A DNA stretch of 64,000 bases from a virus: the IMG/VR virus record IMGVR_UViG_3300020204_000005; one strand, written 5' to 3'. This document shows positions 42,670-60,089 of the stretch, piece by piece. Below the pieces are notes generated by a model, which was not told where the DNA came from, did not search any database, and saw only the letters and a list, made by a program, of their open reading frames with translations. Every line of letters begins with the position of its first letter. Position 1 is the stretch's first letter. The position numbers and the translations under genes are program-made.

Positions 42670-45519
42670 ATGTCGAGTCAAAATATAAATCAATATGTAA
42701 GGAACAACCTATACCCAAAACTTTATTTGGATAGTTATGATATGTCCCTAACATCTGATGAAACAGATTTTAATCAGGAGGTTGTTTTCTCACCTTATTT
42801 AATCGCTCAAACATATGGTAATAAACTACCAATCAATATTGACATAAATAATATTGATACCGTCCAAAATTTAAATTTAACATATAAAAATTATAACAAT
42901 AACAATATTTTTGTTTCTCAAAATTATTACAACCCTGATAAATTAGATTTGAAATGTTTTACTGCAGAAACTTCATGTGATATAGGTTTAACAGGAATTG
43001 ATAACGGTTTAGTAAATAAAATGACAGGTCAAACCATAACATTTACTAAAGGTTTATTTTCAGATTTTTTAAAATTTGATAGGTTAAGTTTTGATAGAAG
43101 ATTCAAAATGTTCCAAGTAACGGGGTATACAAATACTCCAAATGTAAGATTTTCTGGTTTTAATAATACCGTATTATATGAAGTCGTTAGTAAAAACGAC
43201 CCTGTAATCGGTAGATACCACGAATTATATGGAGGGTTTTATCAAGGGTTTTATAAACTTCATGGTTATGATTATGAAATTTTTCCTGAAAGGATGACCA
43301 AAGGGTGGTCGGTCGAAATGATTCTTAAACCGAGATTATTTAATGAATATGTACTAGGACCTGGCGAGACAACATTAAATGGGATATACCCAAATAATAA
43401 AAATACATTTTTTTATTTTGGTACTAGAGCCGAGAATAAGTTTTATCATCATGCGGATGGTACTCCTGATTGTTTTACAGGTTATACTCGAGTAACAACT
43501 CCTTTAACGGGTTTAAGTACATGCGCATGTTGTGATTTAACAATAAAGAATAGTAGATGTATATATGTATACCCGCCAAGGTCTAAGGATGGTAAACATG
43601 ACCCTAGAGTTAATTATGGTTGTGATACATGTGGTGGTTTAAAGACAAAACAGTTATCATGCGGGTGTGGTTGCGACAAACCACAATGTGAGAATTGTGG
43701 GTGGGAATGTCAAACACACATTTGCCCAACAACACCCACCCCAACCCCAACTCAAAGTCCTACACCAACCCCAACAAGTAATAATTGTATTGTTACCCCT
43801 ACTTGTACACCTACATGTACTAAGTGTGATACTTGCGATGACTGTTTAGATTGTAAACCTGAAGGTTTTTCTTCTATTGAGGACACTTGTGAAAAGGACC
43901 CATTATACGACTCAATGTCAAATGCTTTTTCATTAAGATTATGTGGAGACCCTAAAAACCCAAAAATAGGTGTTAGATTTTTAAGATTTACAGGTGATTG
44001 TACAACTTCAGGAGAGTGTTCTACTAGTGGAATCACATACTCAACGGGATATACTATAACTGATATATGTACACCACCAATATACCCAAGATGTGAAAAA
44101 GAAAATCCTGCTTGGTTAAATGAAGAACATTGGTTCCAAGTTAATGTTGTTTGGGAAAGATATACTTGGTTCGATTACTGTGATTTAAAATATCGTGGTG
44201 GATTAGGTGATATAACTAAACAAGTTTATTTAGAATCTTTAGCAAATAATACAACCTCATTAATTAGTACTCCTTACACAAAAGAAAATGGTAAAGTTGC
44301 TGAAAAAATGGATATCATCAATTTAAATGAAAAATGGTTAATTGAGGGTAAAATGAGAAAGGGTAGATTAAAAATCTACATTAATGGTAAGATATTTCAC
44401 ACTATCGAGGATTTTGAGGAAATTATACCAAGAGCTCTAAATACTGATAAAGAAAAACAGGTTGGTGTACCATTTAATATCTCATGGGGCGGAGGAACAC
44501 AAGGGCTTAGAGAAAACTTAACCTTCTCCTCAACAACAATTCCTAATGGACCCTATATCCAAGACCCTGAGTGTTTTCCAACTAATGATTTAACGGCAAC
44601 AACATTCAATGGGTTAACTACTAATATTTTAATCGAACAAAATTTTGCAGGTACTTTTGATGGAGGAATCTCACAATTTAGAATGTATGTAGAACCATTA
44701 TCGGCACCTGAAGTTAAACACAATTTTAAATTACTTGTAAGTAAATTTAATATGTTTAATCCAGATTGTCCTAATTGTTCAACAACAATATGTAAACCTG
44801 ACGACATTACTTATATACTTTCTGCAGATACTCCAACCACAACAACTGAAGACCCATTTGGTAACGAACCTTTAGGTAGATTATATATTGAGGATTTAAG
44901 AGATAAAAATTATTTGATTGAAAGGAAGTTAAAATTAACTCCTAATAAACCAACTACAATGTATTGGGAGTCCGATGAATGGTGGGGAGACCAAGGAAAA
45001 ACTTCTGAATGTGTTGGTTACGCTTGGGCTCATTGGGTCGAGGACGGGCCAATCAAACATAGCGGTATCGCTCCAATAGTTCACCCAACAATTATTTATA
45101 AAGAAGCTCAAAAAATAGATGAGTGGCCTGGTGAAAATTATAAAGGAACTTCTGTTAGAGCGGGGGCCAAATATTTAAAGAGTATTGGTAGAATTGAGCA
45201 ATATTTATGGACTTATGATATAAACGTTTTAATATCGACTGTATTAACTAAAGGACCTGTTGTTGTCGGTACTAATTGGTACTCATCGATGAATAGACCT
45301 AATATTAATGGTTTAATGAAAGTTTCGGGTTTCAAGATTGGAGGTCATGCCTATGTTATCAATGGTGTTGATACAATTAAAAAACAATTTAGAATTAAAA
45401 ATAGTTGGGGTCGTTCTTGGGGTAAACAAGGACATGCCTTTATTTCTTTTAATGATATGAATAAACTTATTAGACAAAACGGTGAAGTTTGTTTAGCTAT
45501 AGAAAAAAGGTCTAACTAA
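42670..45519 (+). CDS. Putative virion protein: LamG/concanavalin-like domain interrupted by a Cys-rich/PT segment, fused to a papain-family (C1) peptidase
   Basis: [40 protein letters not shown] (LamG-like); [23 protein letters not shown] (C1 triad). Confidence 0.72.
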
Positions 45520-46082
45520 TGAGTGAAATTATAGTAATAAAAAGTATAAATTACGATGGTGAATTGGCGAATGTGTTATTTAAACCATCGGGGTCTAACA
45601 AAGTCATTAATTTGGGTAATATTACATTACCTTTTGAATTCGACCCTTCTTTATTAGTTCCTCCTTTAAAACCATATGGTGATTACACTATTTTCCTTGT
45701 TGAGGAAAGTTGTACTTATTATTTAAACGTTCCTGCACCAACTCCAACTCCAACACCTAGTAACACAACTACAAAAACCCCCACACCAACACCAACTCCT
45801 ACCCAAACACCAACTCAAACTATTGACCCTTGTAAATTTATTACACCAACACCAACTAAAAGTGTTACACCAACTAAAACACCTAAATCATCTCCAACAC
45901 CTACACCAAGTTGGGACCCGTGTATAACACCATTCCCAACTAAAACTCCAACACCTACTAATACTCAAACGCCTACATTAACTCCAACACCAACACTTAT
46001 TACTTATTATATCACGAGTGAATCGGGTAATCCTATAATTTCTGAAGATAATAATTATATTATTCCTGAAGATTGTGAATAA
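45519..46082 (+). CDS. Small PT-rich putative virion protein
   Basis: Short beta domain followed by about 90 aa of T/P repeat; TAATG coupling to the upstream gene. Confidence 0.7.
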
Positions 46083-46102
46083 CGATAAATATATATTATT
46101 AA

Positions 46103-49100
46103 ATGATTCAATCAATAGAAATAACTGGTGCGTCAGGTACAGGTCCTTACGACATTGAGGTATGTGATATCACATTATCATTGTGTGTACCAATTGCGTC
46201 ATCAGTTCCTATACCACCAACCTATCAATTTACATTACCTAACGTTTTAAGTGGTGCAACTGAAGTTGTTGTAAGATTAATTGATTCTGAGGGATGTCCT
46301 TGTTTACAGGTATGCCCATGTATTTTACCTAGCCAAACGCCAACATTAACCCCTACAATAACACCAACAATGACAGTTAATTGTAATTGTCTTGAGTTTA
46401 ATAATGAGGATGTTATTGAACATACAATTTCTTTTATTGATTGTAGTGGTAATAATATAGACACTGTTATTTCACCTGAAACGGTATTAACTTTTTGTGG
46501 TAAAAGTCCTTCAGTTAGTAGCCCTTCAGTTATTGTTACAATAGGGGATTTTTGTGTTGGAGGAGTGTGTCCTCCCCCACCACCGACATTAACTCCTACA
46601 CAAACACCGACTAACACCTCAACACCAACAATTACACCAACAAAAACATTGGTACCTTTAGTGGGATATTTCCAATATTGTTGTGACCCGTCAAATATTG
46701 TTATTATCTCAACAATTCCTCTTAGTTATTATCCATTGAGTGGAGTTTATTATGTTGAAAGTGCAGGTTTTAATGGTTGTGTTACTTCAATACCTCCAAC
46801 ATTTTCACCTAATGCGTATGTTTACATCGATGCAATATCGTTTACTTCATGTTCTGATTGTGAATCAACTTATCCATGTCCTTCACCAACCCCTACTGTA
46901 ACACCTACCATCACCCCAACGGAAACCGTTACACCCACTGTAACATCGACCCCAACTACAACGCCAACAGTTACACCAACGGAAACCGTTACACCCACTG
47001 TAACATCGACCCCAACTACAACGCCAACAGTTACACCAACCGAAACTGTCACTCCAACAGTTACTATAACACCTACTAATACCGTCACTCCAACAGTTAC
47101 TAAAACATCAACTCCTACTATTACTCCCACTAAAACTTCAACTGTTACCCCAACTGTAACTAGAACCCAAACGATTACACCAACTAATACGGTAAGACCA
47201 ACTAATACTCCTACCAATACTATAACTCCAACAAAAACTCAAACACCAACTATTACACCAACACACACAATTACTCAGACTAATACGGTAACGCCAACTA
47301 ACACTGTTACCCCAACTAATACCATTACCCCAACAATTACAAGAACTCCAACTAATACCATAACACCAACTAATACACCTACTAATACTGTAACTCCGAC
47401 TAATACTATAACTCCAACTAATACTGTAACTCCGACTATAACACCTACTAATACCATTACCCCAACAATTACAAGAACTCCAACTAATACCATAACACCA
47501 ACTAATACACCTACTAATACTGTAACTCCGACTAATACTATAACTCCAACTAATACTGTAACTCCGACTATAACACCTACTAATACTGTAACTCCAACTA
47601 ATACTATAACTCCAACTAATACTGTAACTCCATCTATCACGCCTACTAAAACTGTAACACCTACTAATACTATTACTCCAACTATTTCATTAACACCAAC
47701 AAGAACTCAAACTCCAACTATAACACCTACTAATACTGTAACTCCAACTAATACTGTAACTCCATCTAATACTGTAACTCCGACTATAACACCTACTAAT
47801 ACTATTACTCCAACTATTTCATTAACACCAACAAGAACTCAAACTCCGACTATAACACCTACTAATACTATTACTCCAACTAATACTATAACTCCAACTA
47901 ATACTGTAACTCCGACTATAACACCTACTAATACTATTACTCCAACTAATACTGTAACACCTACTAATACTGTAACTCCAACTAATACTGTAACTCCAAC
48001 TAATACACCTACTAATACTGTAACTCCGACTATAACACAAACACCAACTAATACTGTCACCCCTACAGTTACTCCAACTATTTCATTAACACCAACAAGA
48101 ACTCAAACTCCAACTATAACACCTACTAACACTGTAACTCCAACTAATACTGTAACTCCGACTATAACACCTACTAATACTGTAACTCCAACTAATACTG
48201 TAACTCCGACTATAACACCTACTAATACTGTAACTCCGACTAATACTGTAACTCCAACTAATACTGTAACTCCGACTATAACACCTACTAATACTATTAC
48301 TCCAACTAATACTGTAACTCCAACTATAACACCTACTAATACTATTACTCCAACTAATACTGTAACTCCATCTATCACGCCTACTAAAACTGTAACACCT
48401 ACTAACACTGTAACTCCAACTAATACTGTAACTCCAACTAATACTATAACTCCAACTAATACTCAAACTCCATCTATCACACCTACTAAAACTGTAACTC
48501 CAACTAATACCATAACACCAACTAATACTGTAACTCCGACTAATACTCAAACTCCATCTATCACGCCTACTAAAACTGTAACTCCAACTATAACACAAAC
48601 ACCAAGTAATACTGTAACTCCGACTATAACACCTACTAATACCATAACACCAACAAGAACTCAAACTCCAACTATAACACCTACTAATACTATTACTCCA
48701 ACTATTTCATTAACACCAACAAGAACTCAAACTCCAACTATAACACAAACACCAACTAATACACCTACTAATACTGTAACTCCGACTAATACTGTAACTC
48801 CGACTAATACTATAACTCCATCTATCACGCCTACTAAAACTGTAACACCTACTAATACTATTACTCCAACTAATACACCTACTAATACTGTAACTCCAAC
48901 TAATACTGTAACTCCATCTATCACGCCTACTAAAACTGTAACACCTACTAATACTATTACTCCAACTAATACTGTAACTCCAACTAATACACCTACTAAT
49001 ACTGTAACTCCAACTAATACTGTAACTCCATCTATCACGCCTACTAAAACTGTAACACCTACTAATACTATTACTCCAACTAATACTGTAACTCCGACTA

Positions 49101-50893
49101 TAACACCTACTAATACCATAACACCAACTAATACTCAAACTCCATCTATCACGCCTACTAAAACTGTAACACCTACTAATACTATTACTCCAACTAATAC
49201 TGTAACTCCGACTATAACACCTACTAATACTGTAACTCCAACTAATACTGTAACTCCAACTATAACACCTACTAATACTGTAACTCCAACTAATACTATA
49301 ACTCCAACTAATACTCAAACTCCATCTATCACACCTACTAAAACTGTAACTCCAACTATTTCATTAACACCAACAAGAACTCAAACTCCGACTATAACAC
49401 CTACTAATACTATTACTCCAACTAATACTATTACTCCAACTAATACCATAACACCAACTATAACACAAACACCAACTAATACAGTTACTCCAACTATTTC
49501 ATTAACACCAACAAGAACTCAAACTCCAACTATAACACCTACTAATACTATTACTCCAACTATTTCATTAACGCCAACAAGAACAGTTACACCATCTATA
49601 ACTCCAACTAATACTATAACGCCAACAAGAACAGTTACACCATCTATAACGCCAACAAGAACAGTTACACCATCTATTACACCTACAGTTACACCAACAA
49701 CACCATATAGGTTTTATTTAATGAGTGATTGTTGTACAAATACTAAAACTAATGTAATGAGTTTACCGACCGCATTTGCATCTGTAGGAAATACTTTTGT
49801 TTCTACAGGAGGAGTTTGTTATTCGGTATCGGCAATCGTTGAGGGACCTGCAAATGTTACTTGGAATGGGGGTACTATATATAGTGGGGGTACTCCATCT
49901 GAAAATTGTACTAGATGTACCGCGGCCAATATTTGCCCTTCACCTACCCCAACGACTACAAAAACACCGACACCTACCCCAACAATTACAAGAACACCAA
50001 CAGTAACACCAACAAGAACTCAAACTCCAACTATTTCATTAACACCAACAAGAACTCAAACTCCGACTATAACACCTACTAATACTATAACTCCAACTAA
50101 TACTGTAACTCCAAGTAATACTGTAACTCCGACTATAACACCTACTAATACTATTACTCCAACTATTTCATTAACACCAACAAGAACTCAAACTCCAACT
50201 ATAACACCTACTAATACTATTACTCCAACTATTTCATTAACACCAACTAGAACTGTAACACCTACAGTAACTCCAAGTATTTCTGTTTCACCAACTAGAA
50301 CTGTAACACCTACAGTAACTCCAAGTATTTCTGTTTCACCAACTAGAACTGTAACACCTACAGTAACTCCAAGTATTTCTGTTTCACCAACTAGAACTGT
50401 AACACCTACAGTAACTCCAAGTATTTCTGTTTCACCAACTAGAACTGTAACACCTACAGTAACTCCAAGTATTTCTGTTTCACCAACTAGAACTGTAACA
50501 CCTACAGTAACTCCTACCATTTCATTAACGCCGACTAGAACTGTAACACCTACAGTAACTCCTACCATTTCATTAACACCAACGAGAACTCAAACCCCAA
50601 CTATAACCCCTACACCAACAATGACACCAACACCAACACAGTGTGGGGATGCTTCATGTTGTCAAATAGAATTATGTTTTGGGCCTGATTGTAGGGGGGC
50701 TTGTGGTTGTAATCAAACAGACACATTCTATCTACATTTACCGTGTGGTGGTAATTGTAAATTATCAAATGCGGATGGTATATTTGAGGACCCGAGGTGT
50801 ACAACTCCGGCAAATAGAAAGTACTATTCAGATGGGAATGATTGTTACTATTGGGATGGAATAAGTTCATTATCTTACGAAGGCCCTTGTTAA
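46103..50893 (+). CDS. Mucin-like 1596-aa Thr/Pro-repeat protein with interspersed Cys-rich domains
   Basis: Long (TPTNTV/I)n tracts about 46883-49704 and 49940-50640, separated and flanked by Cys-rich domains; no signal peptide. Confidence 0.85.
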   Translation: MIQSIEITGASGTGPYDIEVCDITLSLCVPIASSVPIPPTYQFTLPNVLSGATEVVVRLIDSEGCPCLQVCPCILPSQTPTLTPTITPTMTVNCNCLEFNNEDVIEHTISFIDCSGNNIDTVISPETVLTFCGKSPSVSSPSVIVTIGDFCVGGVCPPPPPTLTPTQTPTNTSTPTITPTKTLVPLVGYFQYCCDPSNIVIISTIPLSYYPLSGVYYVESAGFNGCVTSIPPTFSPNAYVYIDAISFTSCSDCESTYPCPSPTPTVTPTITPTETVTPTVTSTPTTTPTVTPTETVTPTVTSTPTTTPTVTPTETVTPTVTITPTNTVTPTVTKTSTPTITPTKTSTVTPTVTRTQTITPTNTVRPTNTPTNTITPTKTQTPTITPTHTITQTNTVTPTNTVTPTNTITPTITRTPTNTITPTNTPTNTVTPTNTITPTNTVTPTITPTNTITPTITRTPTNTITPTNTPTNTVTPTNTITPTNTVTPTITPTNTVTPTNTITPTNTVTPSITPTKTVTPTNTITPTISLTPTRTQTPTITPTNTVTPTNTVTPSNTVTPTITPTNTITPTISLTPTRTQTPTITPTNTITPTNTITPTNTVTPTITPTNTITPTNTVTPTNTVTPTNTVTPTNTPTNTVTPTITQTPTNTVTPTVTPTISLTPTRTQTPTITPTNTVTPTNTVTPTITPTNTVTPTNTVTPTITPTNTVTPTNTVTPTNTVTPTITPTNTITPTNTVTPTITPTNTITPTNTVTPSITPTKTVTPTNTVTPTNTVTPTNTITPTNTQTPSITPTKTVTPTNTITPTNTVTPTNTQTPSITPTKTVTPTITQTPSNTVTPTITPTNTITPTRTQTPTITPTNTITPTISLTPTRTQTPTITQTPTNTPTNTVTPTNTVTPTNTITPSITPTKTVTPTNTITPTNTPTNTVTPTNTVTPSITPTKTVTPTNTITPTNTVTPTNTPTNTVTPTNTVTPSITPTKTVTPTNTITPTNTVTPTITPTNTITPTNTQTPSITPTKTVTPTNTITPTNTVTPTITPTNTVTPTNTVTPTITPTNTVTPTNTITPTNTQTPSITPTKTVTPTISLTPTRTQTPTITPTNTITPTNTITPTNTITPTITQTPTNTVTPTISLTPTRTQTPTITPTNTITPTISLTPTRTVTPSITPTNTITPTRTVTPSITPTRTVTPSITPTVTPTTPYRFYLMSDCCTNTKTNVMSLPTAFASVGNTFVSTGGVCYSVSAIVEGPANVTWNGGTIYSGGTPSENCTRCTAANICPSPTPTTTKTPTPTPTITRTPTVTPTRTQTPTISLTPTRTQTPTITPTNTITPTNTVTPSNTVTPTITPTNTITPTISLTPTRTQTPTITPTNTITPTISLTPTRTVTPTVTPSISVSPTRTVTPTVTPSISVSPTRTVTPTVTPSISVSPTRTVTPTVTPSISVSPTRTVTPTVTPSISVSPTRTVTPTVTPTISLTPTRTVTPTVTPTISLTPTRTQTPTITPTPTMTPTPTQCGDASCCQIELCFGPDCRGACGCNQTDTFYLHLPCGGNCKLSNADGIFEDPRCTTPANRKYYSDGNDCYYWDGISSLSYEGPC
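46921..47040 (+). repeat. 2 x 60-bp perfect tandem repeat
   Basis: Lines 46921-46980 and 46981-47040 are identical. Confidence 0.9.
50246..50485 (+). repeat. 5 x 48-bp perfect tandem repeat (TRTVTPTVTPSISVSP)
   Basis: ACTAGAACTGTAACACCTACAGTAACTCCAAGTATTTCTGTTTCACCA repeated five times. Confidence 0.88.
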
Positions 50894-50898
50894 TAAAA

Positions 50899-50923
50899 AA
50901 CCCCCACTTTTAAGGTGAGGGTT
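50899..50923. terminator. Imperfect terminator-like hairpin after the mucin-like gene
   Basis: AACCCCCACTT-TTA-AGGTGAGGGTT. Confidence 0.5.
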
Positions 50924-50979
50924 AATAATTATACTATTTTCTTTATCTTTTTTTTAAGTATTTTTTCAGTAAAAAAGAT

Positions 50980-52227: not shown

Positions 52228-53163
52228 ATGAAAAATATTAGAGTCCATAATCCCTGTAATGAACATACAAGATATTATAGAAATTATAATTACTTTTGGG
52301 ATGAGTTTACAAACTATTTAAAAGAATTCTTTAATGTTGAAGAAAACCGATACTTTGAGAATGCTCATAAAGAAAGATTTCCTGTTAATTTGAAAAAAGG
52401 AATCTCGGGTAATTTTTTATTATTAGAGTGTGAATATGTTATTGAAAATTTAGAAAGTGGTGAATTTGTTATTATGTCTGTTTCAGATGATTTATCTCAT
52501 GCAACTTTAAATGAAAAGTCAAACCCATTTTTAAAAAAGGTATTAATCTCACAATTTTTACCAAAAAAAATATTAGACCATGTTGGAGAACATATGTATA
52601 AATATTCCCCGTGGACATACTTCCAAGCTTCAATGGATGACTTATCAATATATTACAATAAAAGACAAGAAAAGGAATTTTTAAATAATACTTTATATTT
52701 TAAAGGGACTTCTTTAGAAGATAGAAAAATCCTGAGTTTTATTGACAAAAATATTATTACCGATTTTAATGTTATCACACCATCTAATTATTTTGATGAT
52801 TTGATATCCCATAAAATTGCTTTGTCAGTTGATGGTAGAGGTGAATTTTGTTATAGGGATGTTGAGTGTTTTGGGATAGGGGTACCCATTATTAGATATG
52901 AATATGTATCAAAATTTATTTCCCCGTTAATCCCTAACTACCATTATATATCATTACCAAGACCATCTGATATGGGTTTATATAGGTTAGGTAATGAAAC
53001 ACACGCCAAATTATTGGAAAATAGATACCATGAAGTTATAAACGATAACGAATTCTTATCATTCATCTCAAGAAACGCTAAAGAATATTATGATATTAAT
53101 TTTTCACTTAACTCTAAAATAAAAAACACATTTAATTTATTAAATTTACAAGATTGGGTATGA
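52228..53163 (+). CDS. Putative GT-B glycosyltransferase (exostosin/CgeB-like C-terminus)
   Basis: KIALSVDGRGEFCYRDVECFGIGVPII...LIPNYHYI. Confidence 0.5.
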   Translation: MKNIRVHNPCNEHTRYYRNYNYFWDEFTNYLKEFFNVEENRYFENAHKERFPVNLKKGISGNFLLLECEYVIENLESGEFVIMSVSDDLSHATLNEKSNPFLKKVLISQFLPKKILDHVGEHMYKYSPWTYFQASMDDLSIYYNKRQEKEFLNNTLYFKGTSLEDRKILSFIDKNIITDFNVITPSNYFDDLISHKIALSVDGRGEFCYRDVECFGIGVPIIRYEYVSKFISPLIPNYHYISLPRPSDMGLYRLGNETHAKLLENRYHEVINDNEFLSFISRNAKEYYDINFSLNSKIKNTFNLLNLQDWV

Positions 53164-54035
53164 TACACGAAAATATATTATATGGATACGATTACGATTC
53201 AAATAAAAATGTTCTAATAGGTAGAGAAGAAATTAAAGATTACGGTTTCTTTTCAACTTTTACATTGATGATTTCATCAATAATGGTTGTCTATAAAAAA
53301 TTTAAAAAAACCCCAAAATCTATAGATGGTAAATTCTTATTAAGAAAATTAAAAAAAGATTTAGATATTGATATGTATCAATATTTTTTTCATATTGACG
53401 ACAGTATTGAAATAAATTTTGACGAAGAAATTCCCGTCCCTTTTAGTCCTGATGACCAACACACAATATATTCTGAAAAGTATATCAAATACTATTTACC
53501 ATTTTTTAAAAAGTATTTTAATGTTAACACAAACATTACGGAAAAAATTTCCTTTTTAAAAGAAAAATATGGTATTGATGAGGATAACTCAATTTCGGTT
53601 ATTTACCGTGATTCTGATAAATGGACAGATTTTGGTGGGTTTAATTATATTTCCGCTGGAGGATATTTTAGAAAATGTAAGGAGATTATCGAATTAGAGA
53701 AAATAAGACCAAGAGTGATTATTCAATCTGAAAATAATGGAGTTATTAAAACATTTCAAGAGGCATTCGGTTCTGTATTCTTCACTGAAACTTCTTTAGG
53801 TAATTCTTCCGAAATTTACCCACCAATACCAATAAACGATGAAATTAGATTAGAATGGTCTGAATATTATGTTGCCTCTTTATGGATATTATCAAAATGT
53901 AAACATGTTATAACATACACTGGTAATAGTTCTTTTTTCATCTATTTAAATCGAGGGACTACAAACAATTTTACACAAGAAATAACTTTTACAAAAGATT
54001 ATAATGAGTTTTTTGTAACTAATAATAATATTTAA
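53154..54035 (+). CDS. NodZ/GT23-like fucosyltransferase-fold protein
   Basis: YGFFS, ISVIYRDSDK (cf. GVHIR.TDK), ILSKCKHVITYTGNSSFF. Confidence 0.55.
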   Translation: MGMIHENILYGYDYDSNKNVLIGREEIKDYGFFSTFTLMISSIMVVYKKFKKTPKSIDGKFLLRKLKKDLDIDMYQYFFHIDDSIEINFDEEIPVPFSPDDQHTIYSEKYIKYYLPFFKKYFNVNTNITEKISFLKEKYGIDEDNSISVIYRDSDKWTDFGGFNYISAGGYFRKCKEIIELEKIRPRVIIQSENNGVIKTFQEAFGSVFFTETSLGNSSEIYPPIPINDEIRLEWSEYYVASLWILSKCKHVITYTGNSSFFIYLNRGTTNNFTQEITFTKDYNEFFVTNNNI

Positions 54036-54041
54036 AAAACT

Positions 54042-55802
54042 ATGAAAATATCAATTGGTGACATCGTAGATAGATACTCTATCTGTAAATTAAAAAGTGA
54101 ACGACTAAATTTAGACCTGTCAGATGAGATAAGTCAATTAGAATCTGAAATTGTTAATTATAAAGACATTACACAATATGTCGGGGACTTATATGAAGTA
54201 AACGGTTTAATATGGGATTTAGAGTCTGATATACGTAAGGGTAATGAAGAAATTTTAGGTTTAGAGGAGATTGGCCGAAGAGCTTTAAAAATTAGAGATT
54301 TTAACAATTTAAGAGTAAAAATTAAAAATGAAGTTAATTCAAAATATGGGGAAGGTTTTATTGAGGTTAAAATGAATCATGGTAGTGAAAAGGAAAAATC
54401 TGTAATTATAACTTTAACAACAGTACCTGAAAGATTAGACAATCTAAAAGAAGATGGTTTAAAATTAGTATTAAAATCATTATGTGAACAACTTGATGAT
54501 GATTATGAGGTTCATTTTAATATACCCGAAAAATCCATGGTAACTAATAAACAATACAATATACCGTCTTGGATTAGCGAATATAAATTAAAATACCCTC
54601 ATCTAAAAATTTTCAGACCCGAAGATTTAGGACCACCAACCAAATTTGTACCTACACTTGTGAGAGTCAAAAATCCTGAAACAATATTAATTGTTGTCGA
54701 TGATGATTTAGTTTATCATAATGAAATGGTATCTGAACATAGAAAATATCAAAATGAACTTTTAGATAGTGTGATAGGTTACGATGGAAGAGGTTGTGAT
54801 GTTTTTTTACACAATAATGACATTAGGGATAGTTGGATACTGTGTGTTACTGAAATTAGAAAAACACATAGTTTACAACATTATAAATCAGTCTCATATA
54901 AGAAAAAATTATTTAAAGATGATTTCTTTACCGACTATTTAGGGTCGACTTTTTCAGACGATGTTTTGGTTTCGTTATATTTCAAAAATGAGGGTATACC
55001 GATGTATGTTGTTCCCTACGAAAAAGAAAACCATCTTTTTGAGACCAGAGAACTATGGGATGAAAACCAAGGTGTAACAACATTTCCTGTTTTAAGGTAC
55101 GCGTCTAGTGTTGAGGACACGGGATGTAATCATCCTGAGATGTTAGCAAAACAACCAAAATTTTTTATACCTAATATAAAAACAACTAATAAACATATAT
55201 CTCAGACTAACTTTACAACTGATAAAATTAATCATGGGTATATGGAAGTTTACCAACCTTTATTTACAAGTATGAAAAATGTGAATAAAGTACTTGAGAT
55301 AGGAATATATAAAGGGGAAAGTTTAGAACTTCTTTCTCATTTTTTTAAAGATAGTATAGTTTATGGTATTGATATAACTGATTGTTCTCATTTAAATTCT
55401 GATAAAATTAAAACATTTATTTGTAACCAAGAAAATATCGATGAATTAGAAGATTTCATCTCAAAAGAAGGTGGTAATTTTGATTTAATTATTGACGATG
55501 GCGGACATACAATGAAACAACAACAAATTTCTTTGGGGGTATTATTTAAACACTTAAAGGATGGAGGGGTTTATATTTTAGAAAATTTACACACTTCAGT
55601 TAGAGAAGGTTATAGGGATGAGAATGATATTATAACAACTTTGGATATGTTAAATAAGTTAAATGATGGTGGTGAATTAATTACCAATCATATAACAGAA
55701 GAAAATAAGGAATATATTAAACAAAACGTAGACTCAATTAAAATATGGACAAGGACTCCTGATTTTAATGAAAGTGTAACATCAATAATTAAGAAAAAGT
55801 AA
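54042..55802 (+). CDS. DUF6165-like + GT-A glycosyltransferase + sugar O-methyltransferase fusion
   Basis: ISIGDIVD...NGLIWDLESDIR; TLTTVPERL, DLGPPTK, VDDD; TDK..HGY, VLEIGI, IIDDGGH. Confidence 0.68.
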   Translation: MKISIGDIVDRYSICKLKSERLNLDLSDEISQLESEIVNYKDITQYVGDLYEVNGLIWDLESDIRKGNEEILGLEEIGRRALKIRDFNNLRVKIKNEVNSKYGEGFIEVKMNHGSEKEKSVIITLTTVPERLDNLKEDGLKLVLKSLCEQLDDDYEVHFNIPEKSMVTNKQYNIPSWISEYKLKYPHLKIFRPEDLGPPTKFVPTLVRVKNPETILIVVDDDLVYHNEMVSEHRKYQNELLDSVIGYDGRGCDVFLHNNDIRDSWILCVTEIRKTHSLQHYKSVSYKKKLFKDDFFTDYLGSTFSDDVLVSLYFKNEGIPMYVVPYEKENHLFETRELWDENQGVTTFPVLRYASSVEDTGCNHPEMLAKQPKFFIPNIKTTNKHISQTNFTTDKINHGYMEVYQPLFTSMKNVNKVLEIGIYKGESLELLSHFFKDSIVYGIDITDCSHLNSDKIKTFICNQENIDELEDFISKEGGNFDLIIDDGGHTMKQQQISLGVLFKHLKDGGVYILENLHTSVREGYRDENDIITTLDMLNKLNDGGELITNHITEENKEYIKQNVDSIKIWTRTPDFNESVTSIIKKK

Positions 55803-55803
55803 T

Positions 55804-58182
55804 ATGGATAATTTTTTTGATAAGTCATTACATTTTTTAGGTAAAGTAGAAAATAATATCACCGCATTAAACATTGGTTCGATGGATGGTGTAATGTTTG
55901 ATGAAATGATTGGATACACTAATATGTATAACTTTAGTGTTTTATATGTAGAACCCATACCTTATCTTTTTGATAGATTACAAGAAAACATTAAATCTGA
56001 AAATGCTTTGTTTGAAAATAGTGCAATATCAGATTATAATGGTTCTATTGAAATGGTGACTATCGATAGGGAAGTAATTGATAGTGGCTTAGTCCATAGT
56101 TGTTTTTACGGTATGAGTGCGGTTTATCCACCTAAAAATGGTTTAGGTAGTGAGTTTGATAGACTCACAGTTGAGAAATATGGTAAATTAGTAAAGGTTC
56201 CATGTATTACATTTGAGACTTTATTGGTAAAACATAAACTTAATAACTTTGACATTCTCAAGATAGATGCTGAAGGTCATGATTATAAAATTTTTAAACA
56301 AATTGATTTAAAAAAATATACACCTAAAGTTATAAGATTAGAATGGATTAATTTAGAAGAATCAGAACAAAATGATATTATAAATATTTTTAATGAAAAT
56401 AATTATGTTTATGAAATTTCTGACCAAGATATTGTAGGTATACCTAAAAATTTTTATGATGAACTTAAAAATCAATATACTGAACCCATTAATTTAAACA
56501 ATGGACCAAACATTACTTTAGTTACGGGGTTATGGGATTTAGGTAGAAATAATTTAACCGAAGGATGGTCAAGGTCATACGAAAATCATTATTTAACAAA
56601 GTTTGATGAATTATTAAAAATCGAGAACAATTTAATAATTTTTGGTGATTCAGAATTAGAAAAATTTGTTTGGGAAAGAAGAAGTCACAATAACACCCAA
56701 TTTATAAACAGAGATTTAGATTGGTTTAGAAACAATGAATTCTACTACAAAATTCAAAAAATAAGAACGAATCCTGAATGGTATAATCAATCAGGTTGGA
56801 TTCCAGATTCTACACAAGCAAAATTAGAAATGTATAACCCTCTTGTTATGGGTAAAATGTTTTTATTACACGACGCAAAAATTCTCGACAAGTTTAATTC
56901 CGATTACATGTTTTGGATTGATGCGGGTTTAACAAATACGGTAAACCAAGGATATTTTACTCACGATAAAGTTATCAATAAATTACCAAAACTAACCAAT
57001 AAATTTACATTCATCACTTTCCCATATGAAACTAATTCTGAAATTCATGGTTTTACATTTGATAAGATATGTGAATTTGCAGGTGATAAAGTAAACAAAG
57101 TTGCTAGAGGAGGATTTTTTGGGGGTCCTAAAGAAACCATAACCGAGTCTAATAATTTATATTACCAATTACTTTCTCAAACATTATCTAATGGATATAT
57201 GGGTACTGAAGAAAGTATATTTACAATTATGATATACAAATACCCACAATTATTTAATTATAGTGAGATTGAGGGTAACGGATTAGTATGGTTATTTTTT
57301 GAGAATTTGAAAAAAGAAACATTAAATCTTAAAAGTGAAAAATCAAATAACGAAATTATAAAAATAAAAGATTTGAGTAAAGTAGGTTTATATGTTATTG
57401 GGTTTAATAGTCCAAAACAATTCGAGACTTTAATTTTTTCAATGAAAAAATACGACCAAAATTTCATTGACAAACCTAAGAAATTTTTATTAGACAACTC
57501 AACTGATTTATCAACAACTGAAAAATATTTGTATTTGTGTAAGGAGTATGGTTTTGAACATATTAAAAAAGATAATCTTGGTATTTGTGGTGGTCGACAA
57601 TATATTGCTGAACATTTTGAAAATACCGATTTAGAATATATGTTCTTTTTCGAGGACGATATGTTCTTTTATCCTAAGAAAGGTGAATTATGTCGAAACG
57701 GATTTAATAGATATGTGAGTGATTTATATACCAAATCATTAAAGATTATTGATAGTGAAAACTTAGATTTTTTAAAATTGAATTTTAGTGAATTCTACGG
57801 AGACAACTCTACACAGTGGAGTTGGTACAATGTTCCTCAAACGGTAAGAGAAGAATTATGGCCAGATAATAAAAAATTACCTGTACAAGGATTAGACCCA
57901 AATGCACCAAGAACTAAATTCGAATCAATTAAGTGTATAGACGGAATACCGTACTCAATTGGTGAAGTTTATTATTGTAATTGGCCACAAATAGTCTCCA
58001 AAAAAGGAAATTATAAAATGTTTTTAGAAACTAAATGGGGTCATCCATTTGAGCAGACGTGGATGAGTTACATTCATCAAGAAACGGTCAAAGGTAAAAT
58101 TAAATCAGGTATATTATTATTAACTCCAACAGAACATGATAGATTTGACCATTACGATGGTTCATTAAGAAAAGAAAGTTAA
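55804..58182 (+). CDS. FkbM-type methyltransferase + HtrL/YibB-like glycosyltransferase + GT2-like fusion
   Basis: NIGSMDG, VEP, KIDAEGHD (FkbM); TLVTGLWDLGR, WIDAG, GGFFGG, TEESIF (HtrL); FFEDDMF (GT-A). Confidence 0.72.
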   Translation: MDNFFDKSLHFLGKVENNITALNIGSMDGVMFDEMIGYTNMYNFSVLYVEPIPYLFDRLQENIKSENALFENSAISDYNGSIEMVTIDREVIDSGLVHSCFYGMSAVYPPKNGLGSEFDRLTVEKYGKLVKVPCITFETLLVKHKLNNFDILKIDAEGHDYKIFKQIDLKKYTPKVIRLEWINLEESEQNDIINIFNENNYVYEISDQDIVGIPKNFYDELKNQYTEPINLNNGPNITLVTGLWDLGRNNLTEGWSRSYENHYLTKFDELLKIENNLIIFGDSELEKFVWERRSHNNTQFINRDLDWFRNNEFYYKIQKIRTNPEWYNQSGWIPDSTQAKLEMYNPLVMGKMFLLHDAKILDKFNSDYMFWIDAGLTNTVNQGYFTHDKVINKLPKLTNKFTFITFPYETNSEIHGFTFDKICEFAGDKVNKVARGGFFGGPKETITESNNLYYQLLSQTLSNGYMGTEESIFTIMIYKYPQLFNYSEIEGNGLVWLFFENLKKETLNLKSEKSNNEIIKIKDLSKVGLYVIGFNSPKQFETLIFSMKKYDQNFIDKPKKFLLDNSTDLSTTEKYLYLCKEYGFEHIKKDNLGICGGRQYIAEHFENTDLEYMFFFEDDMFFYPKKGELCRNGFNRYVSDLYTKSLKIIDSENLDFLKLNFSEFYGDNSTQWSWYNVPQTVREELWPDNKKLPVQGLDPNAPRTKFESIKCIDGIPYSIGEVYYCNWPQIVSKKGNYKMFLETKWGHPFEQTWMSYIHQETVKGKIKSGILLLTPTEHDRFDHYDGSLRKES

Positions 58183-58229
58183 TCAGTTTATTTTATAGTA
58201 CCAAAGTATTTATAAGATAAAAAGATTAG

Positions 58230-60089
58230 ATGGAATTCTTTATTAAGAAAAATGCAACATTACCCATATTAAAATTACAGGTAGTAAAGGACGGTAGAAG
58301 TGATTATGATAACTTTATGAAGACCATAGAGTTGTCCGCCATCTTCTTTTCTATGGTTGATGTTGAATCAGGTATTCCTAAAATTTCATCGAGACCTGCA
58401 GGATTTGTTGAGAAGGAGTTTATTGAACCGAATGCAGAACCCGAGTACTACATATATTACCAATTCCAAAATAGAGATACTAATAAAGTAGGTAGATATG
58501 AAGGTCAATTTATGTTAAGAACCGATGATGGTGTCTTAATATTACCTATCAGAGAAAAATTATTTATTAATATACAAGAATCATTTATTGCGAATGATTT
58601 ACCTTATGAAAGTTGTTATACTTCGGAATTCCCTTGTTGTGTTAATCATCCTTATATAACAACCACAACCACAACCACAACACCTTGCCCTAGTTGTCCT
58701 ACATGCCCTGAGCCAACACCTACACCAATAACCACAACTACAACAACTATAGAACCAATAACCACAACTACAACAACTATAGAACCAATAACCACAACTA
58801 CAACAACTATAGAACCAATAACCACAACTACAACAACATTTCCACTATCTGTTATTTTAGATGTTAATATTAATCCAGGGTCAATAATTATTGATTATAA
58901 TTTGACATCAAATCAAGTTTATTATGAAGAAATAAGTATGAGTTTTACTCATATATTAGGTACAACAGAAACGTCAATAACAATTGTTACAGGTGTAACA
59001 ATTCCTATTGGTTATACGACAGGGAATACCCAAGTAATTATAAATGAAGATTTTAACATATTAACTAAAAACGATTCTTTTGGTAATTTCATAGTCAACC
59101 CTCCATCATTAGATTGGGTCGTGTATGAAAATTATCCGACACCTACACCAACTGTAACCCCAACTTTGACACCAACACCTACCAAAACAGTTACTCCGAC
59201 AATTAGTGTTACACCTACACTTACAACCACACCGACTGCCACTTTGACGCCAACAGTTACACCAACCTTAACACCTACAAACACACCTACTAATACACCA
59301 ACATTAACTCCTACTGAAACACCTACTAATACTCCGACTAACACTCCTACAGAAACGCCTACTTTAACACCAACGAATACCCCTACTATTACCCCAACAC
59401 CATCACCATTACCCCAACTACCAATATTGGTCGATAACTGGGATACTTTATTGAACTACTCTATAACGGGAGTGACCTTAAATTCCGTGACACCAACAAA
59501 TACCGGTGGGTCAAACTTCCCTCTTGATGGTTATCCTAATGTGAATTATGAAGGTACGTTTGTATCTACCGAATCTAATCCATTAACAATTCAAGTAGGG
59601 TATAATAGCTCAACATTTGTTCCTGGTATGTATATACAGGTGAGTCACTCAAGTATTGGTTACGCTGTTGAAAATATTTTATCCACGTCTGGAGTTGCAA
59701 CGTTTGGTCCGTACAATTTATATTTTGGAAGTCAACTCTTAATTGAGTTGTTTTCCCCATCAATACTTTTTAAAATGGTAAATAACTCCACAAATAGAAC
59801 TGTTACAAGTGCTTCATATACTATTGGAGGACCAACAGTAAGTTTAGATGTGGGTTCATTCCCAATAAACTCAACAAATTCGGCGGGTTCTTTCACACAT
59901 CCTTCTAGTACAGGTGTGGCACCTGATGCAATAAATTACACTATTGGCGGTACAGGTAATTACACATACGTTGTACTCCGTAATGGAGTTGGAGTGAAAA
60001 GTCAAATAAATACAAATATTAACAATATAATTGTTACTGGTGTGACTTTCTCATCAAGTGATGAAATTATATTAGAAATGTATAACTAA
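58230..60089 (+). CDS. Putative virion fibre: BppU-like N-terminal anchor + Thr/Pro stalks + C-terminal beta domains
   Basis: TLPILKL...FFSM...[15 protein letters not shown] resembles baseplate-upper N-domains; [10 protein letters not shown] repeats and a PT tract. Confidence 0.6.
58725..58837 (+). repeat. About 3.8 x 30-bp tandem repeat ([10 protein letters not shown])
   Basis: CCAATAACCACAACTACAACAACTATAGAA repeated. Confidence 0.85.

What the first reader, a model, noticed from the sequence alone, without database searches (positions are those of the whole stretch)
42670..60089. Candidate phage-encoded mucin-type O-glycosylation (virion glycocalyx) system
Seen: three consecutive genes with Thr/Pro tracts (42670, 45519, 46103) are followed directly by five glycan-enzyme genes (50980-58182) and then a fourth Thr/Pro-stalk gene (58230), all on one strand. 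The cassette starts with a GT60-type polypeptide GlcNAc-transferase. It continues with GT-B, fucosyltransferase-like, GT-A, HtrL-like and two sugar O-methyltransferase domains. Known: GT60 enzymes initiate protein O-glycans, and Trypanosoma cruzi uses one to add alpha-GlcNAc to Thr of its mucins. Virion glycosylation is known from chloroviruses, mimiviruses and some mycobacteriophages, but I know of no described mucin-like substrate plus initiator plus elongation/capping locus in a tailed phage. Inference: the phage builds methyl-capped O-glycans on its own cytoplasmically made, signal-peptide-less Thr-rich fibres. This would give a hydrated brush for protease resistance, adhesion, slower sinking or shielding. 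Caveat: a hairpin at 50899-50923 and no TATTTAT before 50980 suggest the enzymes are transcribed separately from the substrate genes.
Basis: partly seen in the sequence, partly recalled or inferred. Interest (0 to 1): 0.93.

Follow-up and report, generated by a model that had tools for sequence, protein, structure and literature searches.

The report
Phage GT60 sugar-transferase cassette beside Thr/Pro proteins
A large uncultured low-GC phage carries a conserved block of soluble sugar-adding and sugar-methylating enzymes, headed by a relative of the enzymes that start mucin-type sugar chains, wedged between genes for proteins with long threonine/proline tracts, so it probably sugar-coats its own proteins, though no sugar has been measured.

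Summary
Four + strand ORFs carry Thr/Pro tracts. One of them is 1596 aa, with about 1190 aa in T/P repeats. They flank five enzyme genes. These are a GT60/PF11397 transferase (E 3e-73), a GT-B enzyme, a FUT8/NodZ-like enzyme, an enzyme with a MycE/TylE-type sugar O-methyltransferase domain, and an FkbM-methyltransferase + HtrL fusion. None has a signal peptide or membrane segment.

For it:
- The order PT-rich ORF, GT60, variable enzymes, HtrL fusion, PT4, PolB recurs in 80 related viral contigs.
- In 9 of 44 bacterial loci from four phyla, a T/P-tract ORF lies within 3 kb of a GT60 homologue. Only one lies more than 5 kb away.
- Xanthomonas phage XacN1 carries the GT60 homologue (48% identity), and its virions stain for glycoprotein (2018 paper).

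Against it:
- T/P tracts occur throughout these genomes.
- The best-conserved partner of GT60 is the HtrL fusion, not a PT gene.
- Some phages carry GT60–HtrL with no PT gene nearby.
- The PT proteins are not shown to be virion parts.
- No glycan has been measured.

DNA glycosylation is unlikely. The same system was noted earlier in this scan on related genomes. Verdict: a new variant of phage protein glycosylation, of moderately high interest.

The parts
42670..45519 (+). PT1: 949-aa protein with a Cys-rich region, a short T/P tract and a C-terminal papain-family (C1) peptidase
   Evidence: Translation. phrog_16701 peptidase E 3e-56 over residues 735-947, and PF00112. TATTTAT lies 12 nt upstream. 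Its N-terminal 727 aa lie far from GT60 in relatives G001 and G003.
45519..46082 (+). PT2: 187-aa protein, about half T/P tract
   Evidence: Translation. Homologues occur in related loci. No family hit.
46103..50893 (+). PT3: 1596-aa mucin-like protein. TPTNTx-type repeats are interrupted by five small Cys-rich globular modules.
   Evidence: Translation. Tandem repeats with periods of 18 to 132 nt. GC skew -0.45 to -0.64. The ORF in this position ranges from 341 to 3315 aa in relatives. No Pfam hit for the modules.
50899..50923 (.). G+C-rich hairpin between PT3 and GT60
   Evidence: 9-bp stem with 5 G-C pairs. Sequence read. The T-run follows on the minus strand and an A-run precedes on the plus strand.
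50980..52227 (+). GT60-type (PF11397) soluble glycosyltransferase, the putative initiating enzyme, with a conserved C-terminal extension of about 110 aa
   Evidence: PF11397 E 2.9e-73 and phrog_24687 E 7e-170. D92 and H94 (DxH) and 20 other columns are invariant across 26 diverse homologues. No hydrophobic segment. 77-95% identical in 80 viral contigs.
52228..53163 (+). E2: GT-B fold glycosyltransferase (GT90/GT4-like)
   Evidence: AF2 pLDDT 87.6. Foldseek matches: POGLUT2 E 2.5e-6, SdgB, PBCV-1 A075L, Poglut1. Atlas leads PF13524 and PF05686. Present in only a subset of relatives.
53154..54035 (+). E3: fucosyltransferase-superfamily fold (FUT8/NodZ/POFUT-like). The likely start is the ATG at 53160.
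   Evidence: AF2 pLDDT 91.4. Foldseek matches FUT8, NodZ, POFUT2 and AtFUT1 at E 2e-5 to 1e-3. Atlas leads NodZ and FUT8_N_cat. Found only in L003 and L044 among the 80 loci.
54042..55802 (+). E4: N-terminal helical segment, a middle domain with invariant DDD (GT-A-like by eye), and a C-terminal class-I SAM sugar O-methyltransferase
   Evidence: PDB 3ssm (MycE) E 2.3e-16 and 8ia9 (TylE) E 5.7e-15 over residues 398-543. phrog_21658 E 6e-20. DDD invariant. The middle domain has no family hit.
55804..58182 (+). E5: FkbM-family methyltransferase, HtrL_YibB domain, and a conserved C-terminal domain with invariant EDD. Residues 236-792 are the constant partner of GT60.
   Evidence: PF05050 E 2.4e-16 and PF09612 E 1.3e-18. 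TIGR01444 and TIGR02192. Homologues of residues 236-792 lie next to GT60 in XacN1, in marine phages and in 38 of 88 other loci, including many bacterial phyla. EDD invariant.
58230..60089 (+). PT4: conserved 140-aa N-terminal module, then TTTTT and T/P tracts and beta-rich domains
   Evidence: Translation. The N-terminal module is 50-97% identical in relatives, while the whole ORF varies from 133 to 784 aa. In G001 the same module is fused to the papain domain. TATTTAT lies 17 nt upstream. No Pfam or PDB hit.

Best explanation
This is a phage-encoded, cytoplasmic protein O-glycosylation system.

Proposed mechanism:
1. The soluble GT60-family enzyme (50980-52227) transfers a first sugar onto Thr (or Ser) in the Thr/Pro tracts. 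By analogy with characterised GT60 enzymes, this would be alpha-GlcNAc from UDP-GlcNAc. The acceptors are phage proteins made without signal peptides: PT3, PT2, PT4 and PT1, and probably other T/P-tract proteins elsewhere in the genome.
2. The HtrL-plus-C-terminal-domain part of E5, its constant partner, adds the next sugar or sugars.
3. A strain-variable set of further transferases extends the chain. Here these are a GT-B enzyme, a fucosyltransferase-like enzyme and the middle domain of E4.
4. The MycE/TylE-type and FkbM-type methyltransferase domains O-methylate terminal sugars.
5. The glycosylated proteins are most likely exposed on the virion or released at lysis.

Shown: the gene identities, the solubility, the conserved synteny, and the enrichment of T/P genes next to GT60 in bacteria.
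Inferred: the acceptor, the donor sugar, the order of the steps and the virion location.
For: (1) GT60 identity. PF11397 E 2.9e-73. The DxH motif and other catalytic-type residues are invariant in 26 homologues of 36-53% identity. Characterised GT60 enzymes all act on polypeptides: Skp1 hydroxyproline and T. cruzi mucin Thr (established knowledge).

(2) None of the nine proteins has a signal peptide or membrane segment. The maximum 19-residue Kyte-Doolittle mean is at most 1.53.

(3) Synteny. In 80 viral contigs with GT60 at 77-95% identity, the order GT60, variable enzymes, E5, PT4, PolB is kept. In 51 of 76 loci the ORF directly upstream of GT60 has a T/P tract, and nearly all loci have one within 10 kb. 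Both the tract length (30-1227 aa) and the distance from GT60 to E5 (64 bp to 9.1 kb) vary a lot, as expected for a diversifying surface glycan and its carrier.

(4) Independent lineages. Contig L084 has a Peptidase_S74 fibre gene, then a 651-aa ORF with a 137-aa T/P/S tract, then two GT60 genes. L090 has a PT ORF two genes upstream of GT60.

(5) Bacteria. 9 of 44 loci with full flanks have a T/P-tract ORF within 3 kb of GT60, against 1 more than 5 kb away (binomial p about 0.001). They span Bacteroidota, Gemmatimonadota, Verrucomicrobiota and Pseudomonadota. The carriers are all polypeptides: PqqD domain + PT tail, VgrG + PT tail, T9SS cargo + PT, LamG + PT, fn3/BNR + PT.

(6) XacN1 carries the GT60 homologue ORF334 (48% identity) plus an E5 homologue. 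Its purified virions show at least two Schiff-positive glycoprotein bands (PMC5852040).

(7) E2's fold resembles protein O-glucosyltransferases (POGLUT1/2), the Ser-Asp-repeat GlcNAc-transferase SdgB and the chlorovirus capsid-glycan xylosyltransferase A075L. E3's fold resembles fucosyltransferases, including protein O-fucosyltransferases. Fusions of transferase and methyltransferase domains parallel PBCV-1 A064R, which builds and methylates the capsid glycan (PMC9614988).

(8) No prolyl hydroxylase (PF13640) was found in three related genomes or in XacN1/Xoo-sp13. This favours Thr/Ser over hydroxyproline as the acceptor.
Against: - No glycan or glycoprotein has been measured for this phage.
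- T/P tracts are not specific to the locus. PTPTPT-coding DNA occurs at many distant sites: 52 hits in each of two related genomes of 272-322 kb, and 31 and 23 in XacN1 and Xoo-sp13. The window has another at 20573-21028.
- In 25 of 76 relatives the immediate upstream ORF has no T/P tract, and two loci with full flanks (L070, L072) have none within 10 kb.
- Marine T4-like contigs L088/L089 have GT60-HtrL-FkbM between dUTPase and PolB with no PT ORF within 10 kb.
- 35 of the 44 bacterial loci show no PT ORF within 3 kb by my threshold.
- The 80 phage loci are close kin, so their synteny counts as roughly one evolutionary event.
- The PT proteins are not shown to be virion components. Pfam and PDB give no structural match for the globular parts of PT1, PT3 and PT4, and PHROGs shows only a peptidase match for PT1 and weak matches to a family of unknown function for PT2 and PT4.
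- The TATTTAT 'late promoter' lead is weak, because the word is not over-represented.
- The glycoprotein bands in XacN1 were not identified, and XacN1 has a second transferase (ORF328).
Confidence: 0.55

Rival explanations
1. The cassette glycosylates phage structural proteins at sites other than T/P tracts, for example the capsid or tail tube as in mycobacteriophages, or as with chlorovirus capsid glycans. The T/P tracts would be plain flexible linkers that happen to be common in this phage group.
For: T/P tracts are genome-wide in these phages and are common linkers. Marine T4-like relatives keep GT60-HtrL-FkbM without any nearby PT gene. XacN1 has virion glycoproteins, but their identity is unknown. 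The major capsid protein and other structural genes lie in the same window.
Against: Enrichment of T/P-tract ORFs next to GT60 in unrelated bacteria, on carriers that share nothing else, is hard to explain if the tracts are irrelevant. Characterised GT60 members target Thr- or Pro-rich acceptor sites (established knowledge).
Confidence: 0.15
2. The enzymes act on host molecules during infection. Targets could be host T/P-rich secreted proteins (for example T9SS cargo), the envelope or a capsule. The effect could be to block superinfection or change the cell surface.
For: A Saprospiraceae chromosome carries GT60 and E5 homologues at 70% and 60% identity beside a T9SS-sorted T/P protein, so the phage genes may be captured host genes with host-type targets. 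A jumbo-phage review reads phage glycosyltransferase clusters as surface-polysaccharide modifiers (PMC7824862). The enzyme block lacks the TATTTAT word found before PT1 and PT4 and follows a hairpin.
Against: The cassette has no membrane protein, flippase, polymerase or initiating phosphoglycosyl transferase, and all its enzymes are soluble. The phage itself encodes abundant T/P acceptors next door, and that arrangement is conserved. GT60 is as conserved as PolB across relatives, which suits a core virion-related role.
Confidence: 0.13
3. The cassette hypermodifies phage DNA with sugars, as T-even phages glucosylate hydroxymethylcytosine.
For: The cassette sits in or beside the replication module (dUTPase, exonuclease, PolB) in this phage, in XacN1 and in marine T4-like contigs. 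Phage DNA glycosylation with diverse glycans is known (cited in PMC12619734).
Against: The thymidylate-synthase homologue of close relative G002 scores over the cut-off as a true thymidylate synthase (TIGR03284, 315 bits against a cut-off of 108; NF002496, 338 against 325), and XacN1's scores 220 bits on TIGR03284. Neither looks like a hydroxymethylase. GT60 + HtrL pairs are common in ordinary bacterial chromosomes, where DNA is not glycosylated. No characterised GT60 member acts on DNA. Methyl-capped multi-sugar chains are more typical of surface glycans.
Confidence: 0.04
4. The core GT60-HtrL pair glycosylates a small peptide or RiPP-like product rather than large structural proteins, and the phage uses it for a diffusible product.
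For: In Gemmatimonadaceae, GT60-HtrL follows a PqqD-domain protein and an NTP_transf_5 gene. Other contigs have GT60 + PqqD + ScmC + GT60. PqqD domains are peptide-recognition elements of RiPP pathways (established knowledge).
Against: No PqqD-domain gene turned up among the cassette genes, the PT genes and the neighbours that I scanned. In the Gemmatimonas case the PqqD domain is itself fused to a T/P tail, which fits polypeptide T/P glycosylation.
Confidence: 0.05

Closest known systems
CAZy GT60 / Pfam PF11397 polypeptide alpha-GlcNAc-transferases (Dictyostelium/Toxoplasma Gnt1 on Skp1 hydroxyproline; Trypanosoma cruzi OGNT on mucin Thr)
   Same: Clear family membership by profile (E 2.9e-73). 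The DxH motif is conserved. The enzyme is soluble like cytoplasmic Gnt1. It sits next to Thr/Pro-rich candidate acceptors, as T. cruzi enzymes act on Thr-rich mucins.
   Different: It is prokaryotic-virus encoded. It has an extra conserved C-terminal domain of about 110 aa. It is always paired with an HtrL-type enzyme. Donor, linkage and acceptor are untested. No prolyl hydroxylase was found in relatives, so a Skp1-type hydroxyproline route is unlikely.
Xanthomonas jumbo phage XacN1 (and Xoo-sp13, Stenotrophomonas CM1/RAS14): ORF334 glycosyltransferase and Schiff-positive virion proteins
   Same: GT60 homologue at 47-48% identity over the full length, with an E5 homologue four genes downstream and PolB nearby. 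T/P tracts occur in several large proteins. The authors proposed that the phage's own transferases make its virion glycoproteins (PMC5852040).
   Different: XacN1 has a carbamoyltransferase and two unknown ORFs in place of the GT-B, FucT-like and methyltransferase genes. It has no mucin-like gene directly upstream. Its glycoprotein bands were not identified and were not linked to ORFs or to T/P tracts.
Mycobacteriophage virion glycosylation (Freeman et al. 2023, as cited in PMC12619734)
   Same: A tailed phage encodes its own glycosyltransferases, which would modify its own proteins in the cytoplasm.
   Different: In the mycobacteriophages the glycans sit on C-terminal extensions of capsid and tail-tube subunits (as summarised in PMC12619734). 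I could not read the primary paper, so I did not compare enzyme families. Here the candidate carriers are separate proteins with long tandem T/P repeats.
Chlorovirus PBCV-1 capsid glycan machinery (A064R GT-GT-methyltransferase; A075L xylosyltransferase)
   Same: Soluble, virus-encoded, multi-domain fusions of transferase and methyltransferase domains that build and O-methylate a virion glycan (PMC9614988). The E2 model matches A075L by fold.
   Different: Chlorovirus glycans are N-linked to the major capsid protein of a eukaryotic virus. No GT60 enzyme and no T/P-repeat carrier is involved.
Animal mucin-type O-glycosylation (GT27 ppGalNAc-transferases on PTS tandem repeats)
   Same: A proline/threonine tandem-repeat carrier flanked by small Cys-rich modules, plus an initiating GT-A DxH enzyme of the related family.
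   Different: The compartment is the cytoplasm rather than the Golgi, and there is no lectin domain. The likely first sugar is different. Dense glycosylation of the tracts is not shown.

Membership tests
CAZy GT60 / Pfam PF11397 (GlcNAc) | Profile match above the curated threshold over the catalytic domain | tested here: met
   247.8 bits against a cut-off of 21, E 2.9e-73, in two stretches reaching profile position 350 of 352. In relatives, profile positions 2-43 and 95-350 are matched.
CAZy GT60 / Pfam PF11397 (GlcNAc) | GT-A DxH metal-binding motif and conserved catalytic-site residues | tested here: met
   D92-S-H94 is invariant, as are E205, R211, H229 and others, across 26 homologues of 36-53% identity. 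The role of DxH is from established knowledge of GT27/GT60.
CAZy GT60 / Pfam PF11397 (GlcNAc) | Transfers alpha-GlcNAc from UDP-GlcNAc to a polypeptide hydroxyl (Thr or Hyp) | not testable with these tools
   Needs an enzyme assay. No solved structure was found by sequence.
Mucin-type O-glycosylation system | Carrier protein with long Pro/Thr/Ser tandem repeats | tested here: met
   PT3 has 1186 of 1596 residues in T/P tracts, encoded by tandem repeats.
Mucin-type O-glycosylation system | Initiating polypeptide glycosyltransferase functionally coupled to the carrier | tested here: inconclusive
   Adjacency is conserved in 51 of 76 relatives. T/P genes are enriched near GT60 in bacteria: 9 proximal against 1 distal, p about 0.001. 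However, GT60 also occurs without nearby PT genes.
Mucin-type O-glycosylation system | Dense O-glycans on the repeats | not testable with these tools
   Needs glycoproteomics or staining.
Phage virion glycosylation (XacN1 / mycobacteriophage type) | Phage-encoded glycosyltransferases | tested here: met
   Further transferase genes lie at 31029-40007.
Phage virion glycosylation (XacN1 / mycobacteriophage type) | The modified proteins are virion components | tested here: inconclusive
   No structural-family hit for the globular parts of PT1, PT3 or PT4. Indirect hints only: PT4 has a conserved N-terminal module with variable cargo, and TATTTAT is shared with terminase and portal gene upstreams but is not over-represented.
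Phage virion glycosylation (XacN1 / mycobacteriophage type) | Glycan detectable on purified virions | not testable with these tools
   Reported only for XacN1, which has the homologue (PMC5852040).
Chlorovirus-type multi-domain GT-methyltransferase enzymes (A064R-like) | One polypeptide combining glycosyltransferase and SAM methyltransferase domains | tested here: met
   E5 combines FkbM and HtrL_YibB. The E4 methyltransferase domain matches MycE/TylE. The extra GT-A-like domains of E4 and E5 are unverified.
Phage DNA glycosylation (T-even type) | A pathway that makes a hydroxymethylated base (dCMP/dUMP hydroxymethylase) as sugar acceptor | tested here: not met
   The PF00303 homologues of a close relative (G002) and of XacN1 score as true thymidylate synthase (TIGR03284, 315 and 220 bits against a cut-off of 108). 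The rest of the window's own genome was not available.

The most novel reading that the evidence does not exclude
GT60 plus the HtrL/C-terminal-domain enzyme is the core of a widespread, so far undescribed prokaryotic and phage pathway of cytoplasmic 'mucin-type' O-glycosylation. The pathway would target Thr/Pro tracts wherever they occur: phage fibre-like proteins, VgrG spike tails, T9SS cargo and PqqD-fused peptides. In the phages, the variable enzyme island and the length-variable T/P carriers would form a fast-evolving glycan coat on the particle.
Probability: 0.35. Interest if true: 0.85.

Novelty: new variant of a known kind. Interest (0 to 1): 0.62.

Why it matters
Phage-made glycans on phage proteins are known from only a few cases. 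Here the candidate system is a core, highly conserved feature of a very abundant group of large environmental phages. I found more than 7,400 clusters (at 90% identity) of close GT60 relatives, and 4,640 clusters (at 50% identity) for the wider family.

If Thr/Pro tracts are the acceptors, several things would follow:
- The common 'PT linkers' of phage and bacterial surface proteins would have a biochemical role beyond spacing.
- The bacterial GT60-HtrL gene pair, which has no known role, would have one.
- The hypervariable enzyme island between GT60 and E5 would read as glycan diversification, comparable to O-antigen loci.

Such a coat could affect adsorption, protease resistance, aggregation, and grazing or immune recognition. 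The system is directly testable with two or three cloned genes.

Tried and rejected
1. No near-identical DNA in GenBank phages (megablast).
2. No whole genome is held for the window, so genome-wide questions were asked of three related IMG/VR genomes and of XacN1/Xoo-sp13.
3. Sequence searches of PDB with GT60, E2, E3, E5 and with profiles A1, A2, A3, A4 and A6 gave nothing usable. Only the E4 methyltransferase domain hit.
4. Pfam scans of all members of the E2 and E3 alignments gave no transferase family. Fold assignment came only from AF2 plus Foldseek.
5. The GT-A assignment for the E4 middle domain and the E5 C-terminal domain could not be confirmed.
6. Pfam scans of the globular parts of PT1, PT3 and PT4 found nothing. 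A PDB profile search with the PT4 N-terminal module also found nothing, including no BppU-like or LamG hit.
7. The 'moraphage' paper (PMC12619734) mentions core glycosyltransferases in a Bacteroidota jumbo-phage lineage. I could not establish that it is this lineage.
8. The GT60 tree of representatives was star-like and unresolved. I used it only to pick diverse members.
9. Literature searches for GT60 or PF11397 with phage found no relevant paper.
10. Freeman et al. 2023 could not be read.
11. I did not send a complex-prediction job. An enzyme with its substrate is a poor case for that test, and the report claims no stable binding.

Full report
WHAT THE WINDOW IS

The window is about 31% G+C. 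It encodes:
- a large terminase (8917-10692), a portal (10893-12701) and an HK97-type major head protein (17102-18982);
- a tail-lysin-like protein (2351-4690);
- a Clp-type ATPase, PhoH, dUTPase and a 3'-5' exonuclease;
- a family-B DNA polymerase (60409-63207).

It is therefore part of a tailed phage. No whole genome is held for it. No GenBank phage is close at the DNA level.

The GT60 protein has 282 confirmed relatives in IMG/VR. The best 80 are 77-95% identical and lie on contigs of up to 322 kb. A word-based protein search found more than 7,400 clusters (at 90% identity) of close relatives. This is a large, abundant group of uncultured phages.

THE OBSERVATION

All nine ORFs are on the + strand at the stated coordinates.

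The four PT proteins:
- PT3 is 1596 aa. About 1186 aa are TPTNTx-type repeats, encoded by true tandem DNA repeats. Five small Cys-rich modules interrupt the repeats.
- PT2 has about 96 aa of tract.
- PT4 has about 153 aa.
- PT1 has only about 37 aa. It ends in a papain-family peptidase (phrog_16701, E 3e-56).

The five enzymes:
- GT60 matches PF11397 at E 2.9e-73 and phrog_24687 at E 7e-170. D92/H94 (DxH) and about 20 other columns are invariant across 26 homologues of 36-53% identity.
- E2 had no sequence-level family. Its AF2 model (pLDDT 88) is a GT-B fold. The best matches are protein O-glucosyltransferase 2, the Ser-Asp-repeat GlcNAc-transferase SdgB, chlorovirus A075L and Rumi/POGLUT1.
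- E3's model (pLDDT 91) matches the FUT8/NodZ/POFUT2/AtFUT1 superfamily.
- E4 carries a MycE/TylE-type sugar O-methyltransferase.
- E5 carries an FkbM methyltransferase plus HtrL_YibB.

The further 'GT-A' domains claimed for E4 and E5 remain unverified. They have invariant DDD and EDD motifs but no profile or PDB support.

None of the nine proteins has a hydrophobic segment that could be a signal peptide or membrane anchor.

The hairpin at 50899-50923 is real. TATTTAT precedes PT1 and PT4, and also the terminase, portal and several neighbouring genes, by 6-34 nt. It is missing before GT60. As a word it is not over-represented in the window, so I treat it as a weak lead for shared late expression.

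CONSERVATION IN RELATED PHAGES

Across the 80 viral loci the order GT60, variable enzymes, E5, PT4, PolB is kept.
- The distance from GT60 to E5 runs from 64 bp to 9.1 kb.
- E2 is present in a minority of loci and E3 in two. GT60 and E5 thus bracket a variable enzyme island.
- The ORF directly upstream of GT60 carries a T/P tract in 51 of 76 loci. It is 341-3315 aa long, with 30-1227 aa of tract.
- Nearly all other loci have a T/P ORF a little further upstream. L070 and L072 have none within 10 kb.
- PT4's 140-aa N-terminal module is 50-97% identical, while the rest of the ORF varies from nothing to about 640 aa.
- In the complete relative G001, this module is fused to the papain domain that ends PT1 in the window. 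PT1's N-terminal part lies 34 kb away from GT60 there.

A constant head with swappable cargo is typical of proteins that dock onto a larger assembly. That is an inference, not a demonstration of virion location.

These 80 loci are close kin, so their agreement is roughly one evolutionary observation.

IS THE LINK BETWEEN GT60 AND T/P TRACTS MORE THAN LOCAL HABIT?

Two results cut against a simple reading.
- PTPTPT-coding DNA is scattered over the whole genome of relatives. There are 52 hits each in G001 and G002, at many loci far from GT60. XacN1 has 31 hits and Xoo-sp13 has 23.
- The constant neighbour of GT60 is not a PT gene but the HtrL-plus-C-terminal part of E5. It lies next to or near GT60 in XacN1/Xoo-sp13, in marine contigs L083 and L088/L089, and in 38 of 88 other loci, including many bacterial phyla.
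- In L088/L089, a marine T4-like phage, GT60-HtrL-FkbM sits between dUTPase and PolB with no T/P ORF within 10 kb.

Three results speak for a real link.
- Other phage lineages repeat the pairing. L084 has a Peptidase_S74 fibre gene, a 651-aa ORF with a 137-aa T/P/S tract, then two GT60 genes. L090 has a PT ORF two genes upstream.
- In 44 bacterial loci with 10 kb on each side, T/P-tract ORFs lie within 3 kb of GT60 in 9 loci and more than 5 kb away in only 1, although the distal zone is larger (binomial p about 0.001).
- The nine come from Bacteroidota, Gemmatimonadota, Verrucomicrobiota and Pseudomonadota. Their carriers share nothing but the tract: PqqD domain + PT tail 46-127 bp upstream of GT60, VgrG spikes with PT tails, T9SS-sorted proteins, a LamG protein and an fn3/BNR protein.

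However, it holds for about a fifth of loci, not for most.

PUBLISHED EXPERIMENTAL HINT

The nearest cultured phages with this enzyme are Xanthomonas XacN1 and Xoo-sp13 and Stenotrophomonas CM1 and RAS14 (47-48% identity over the full length).

The XacN1 paper names ORF334 (this homologue) and ORF328 as its only glycosyltransferases. It shows at least two Schiff-stained glycoprotein bands in purified virions. It proposes that the phage's own enzymes make them (PMC5852040).

The bands were not identified, and no link to T/P tracts or to GT60 as a family was drawn. My literature searches for GT60 or PF11397 with phage found nothing further.

RIVALS

DNA glycosylation:
- It is suggested by the position next to replication genes in three lineages.
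- Close relative G002 and XacN1 encode enzymes that score as true thymidylate synthase, not a hydroxymethylase.
- The same gene pair is common in ordinary bacterial chromosomes.
- I rate it at about 4%.

Modification of host molecules:
- It remains possible. A Saprospiraceae chromosome, with carB, uvrB, tatA and Omp85 around, carries GT60 and E5 homologues at 70% and 60% identity beside a T9SS T/P protein.
- That points to gene exchange with Bacteroidota and to host-type targets.
- However, the cassette has no membrane or lipid-carrier enzymes.

Glycosylation of phage proteins at sites other than T/P tracts cannot be excluded either.

No prolyl hydroxylase (PF13640) is present in the related genomes. 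If T/P tracts are the acceptor, Thr/Ser is therefore more likely than hydroxyproline.

VERDICT

The sequence observation is confirmed. I give about 0.55 to 'GT60-initiated, methyl-capped O-glycans on the phage's own T/P-tract proteins'. I give about 0.7 to the broader 'protein glycosylation by this cassette'.

Phage self-glycosylation is a known kind. A GT60-headed cassette with mucin-like carriers, and its bacterial GT60-HtrL counterpart, is a new variant.

The scan has met the same system on several related genomes before, and earlier follow-ups reached similar verdicts.

Noticed in passing
window 31029-40007, minus strand: A second block of glycan enzymes: a GT2 (31029-31832), a double GT2 protein (34579-36087; PF13712 E 2e-21 and PF00535 E 2e-9), a Methyltransf_24 protein with a weak Nucleotid_trans match (36059-37405) and a GT-B enzyme (38715-40007; phrog_7162 E 5e-47). 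They are interleaved with PhoH, dUTPase and an exonuclease. The window thus holds about ten transferase domains and four methyltransferase domains.
   Followed up: partly
L098/L175 (Saprospiraceae MAG chromosome, about 10 kb around 10001-13113): A bacterial chromosome (carB, NAD kinase, Omp85, uvrB, tatA nearby) carries GT60 at 70% and an E5-like HtrL protein at 60% identity to the phage genes. They sit divergently next to a T9SS-sorted T/P-tract protein and a sulfotransferase. This points to Bacteroidota/Saprospiraceae as host and to recent gene exchange.
   Followed up: partly
L112/L174 and L113 (Gemmatimonadaceae), L085, L086: GT60-HtrL lies downstream of a PqqD-domain protein with a T/P/S tail and an NTP_transf_5 gene. 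Other contigs have GT60 + PqqD + ScmC + GT60 + FkbM. This looks like a RiPP-style peptide glycosylation context for the same enzyme family.
   Followed up: partly
L146 (Ralstonia), L160 (Achromobacter), L119 (Paraherbaspirillum): VgrG type VI spike proteins with long C-terminal TPTPTP tails lie 1.2-4 kb from shorter GT60 homologues that lack the C-terminal domain.
   Followed up: no
G001:171259-172359 (relative of L047); window 58230-58670 and 44830-45519: The conserved PT4 N-terminal module is fused to the papain-type peptidase in a relative, while in the window that peptidase ends PT1. The module carries swappable cargo. XacN1 has the peptidase as a free-standing 227-aa ORF (40% identity).
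   Followed up: partly
G001:5332-7607 (relative): The thymidylate synthase match is split into three pieces over about 2.3 kb in two open frames. This suggests an intron, an intein or another insertion in thyA of that phage.
   Followed up: no
proteins P0216-P0228 (search of representatives): Many giant proteins of 1,000-2,500 aa contain up to four or five GT60 stretches in tandem and have no T/P tracts. Their origin and context are unknown.
   Followed up: no
window 20573-21028: A 151-aa ORF just after the head genes has a 62-aa T/P tract and weak peptidoglycan-binding and chitinase-like matches. It shows that T/P tracts also occur away from the cassette.
   Followed up: no
window 60108-60303: TATTTAT followed by a short ORF starting at 60127, between PT4 and PolB. 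Not examined.
   Followed up: no
mrC73blp contig (no DNA available): A GT60 homologue (50% identity) follows a 1341-aa ORF of no known family, on a contig that also encodes a poly(A) polymerase catalytic domain and a PI-PLC. It may be a eukaryotic giant virus, so the family may also pair with large carriers there.
   Followed up: no
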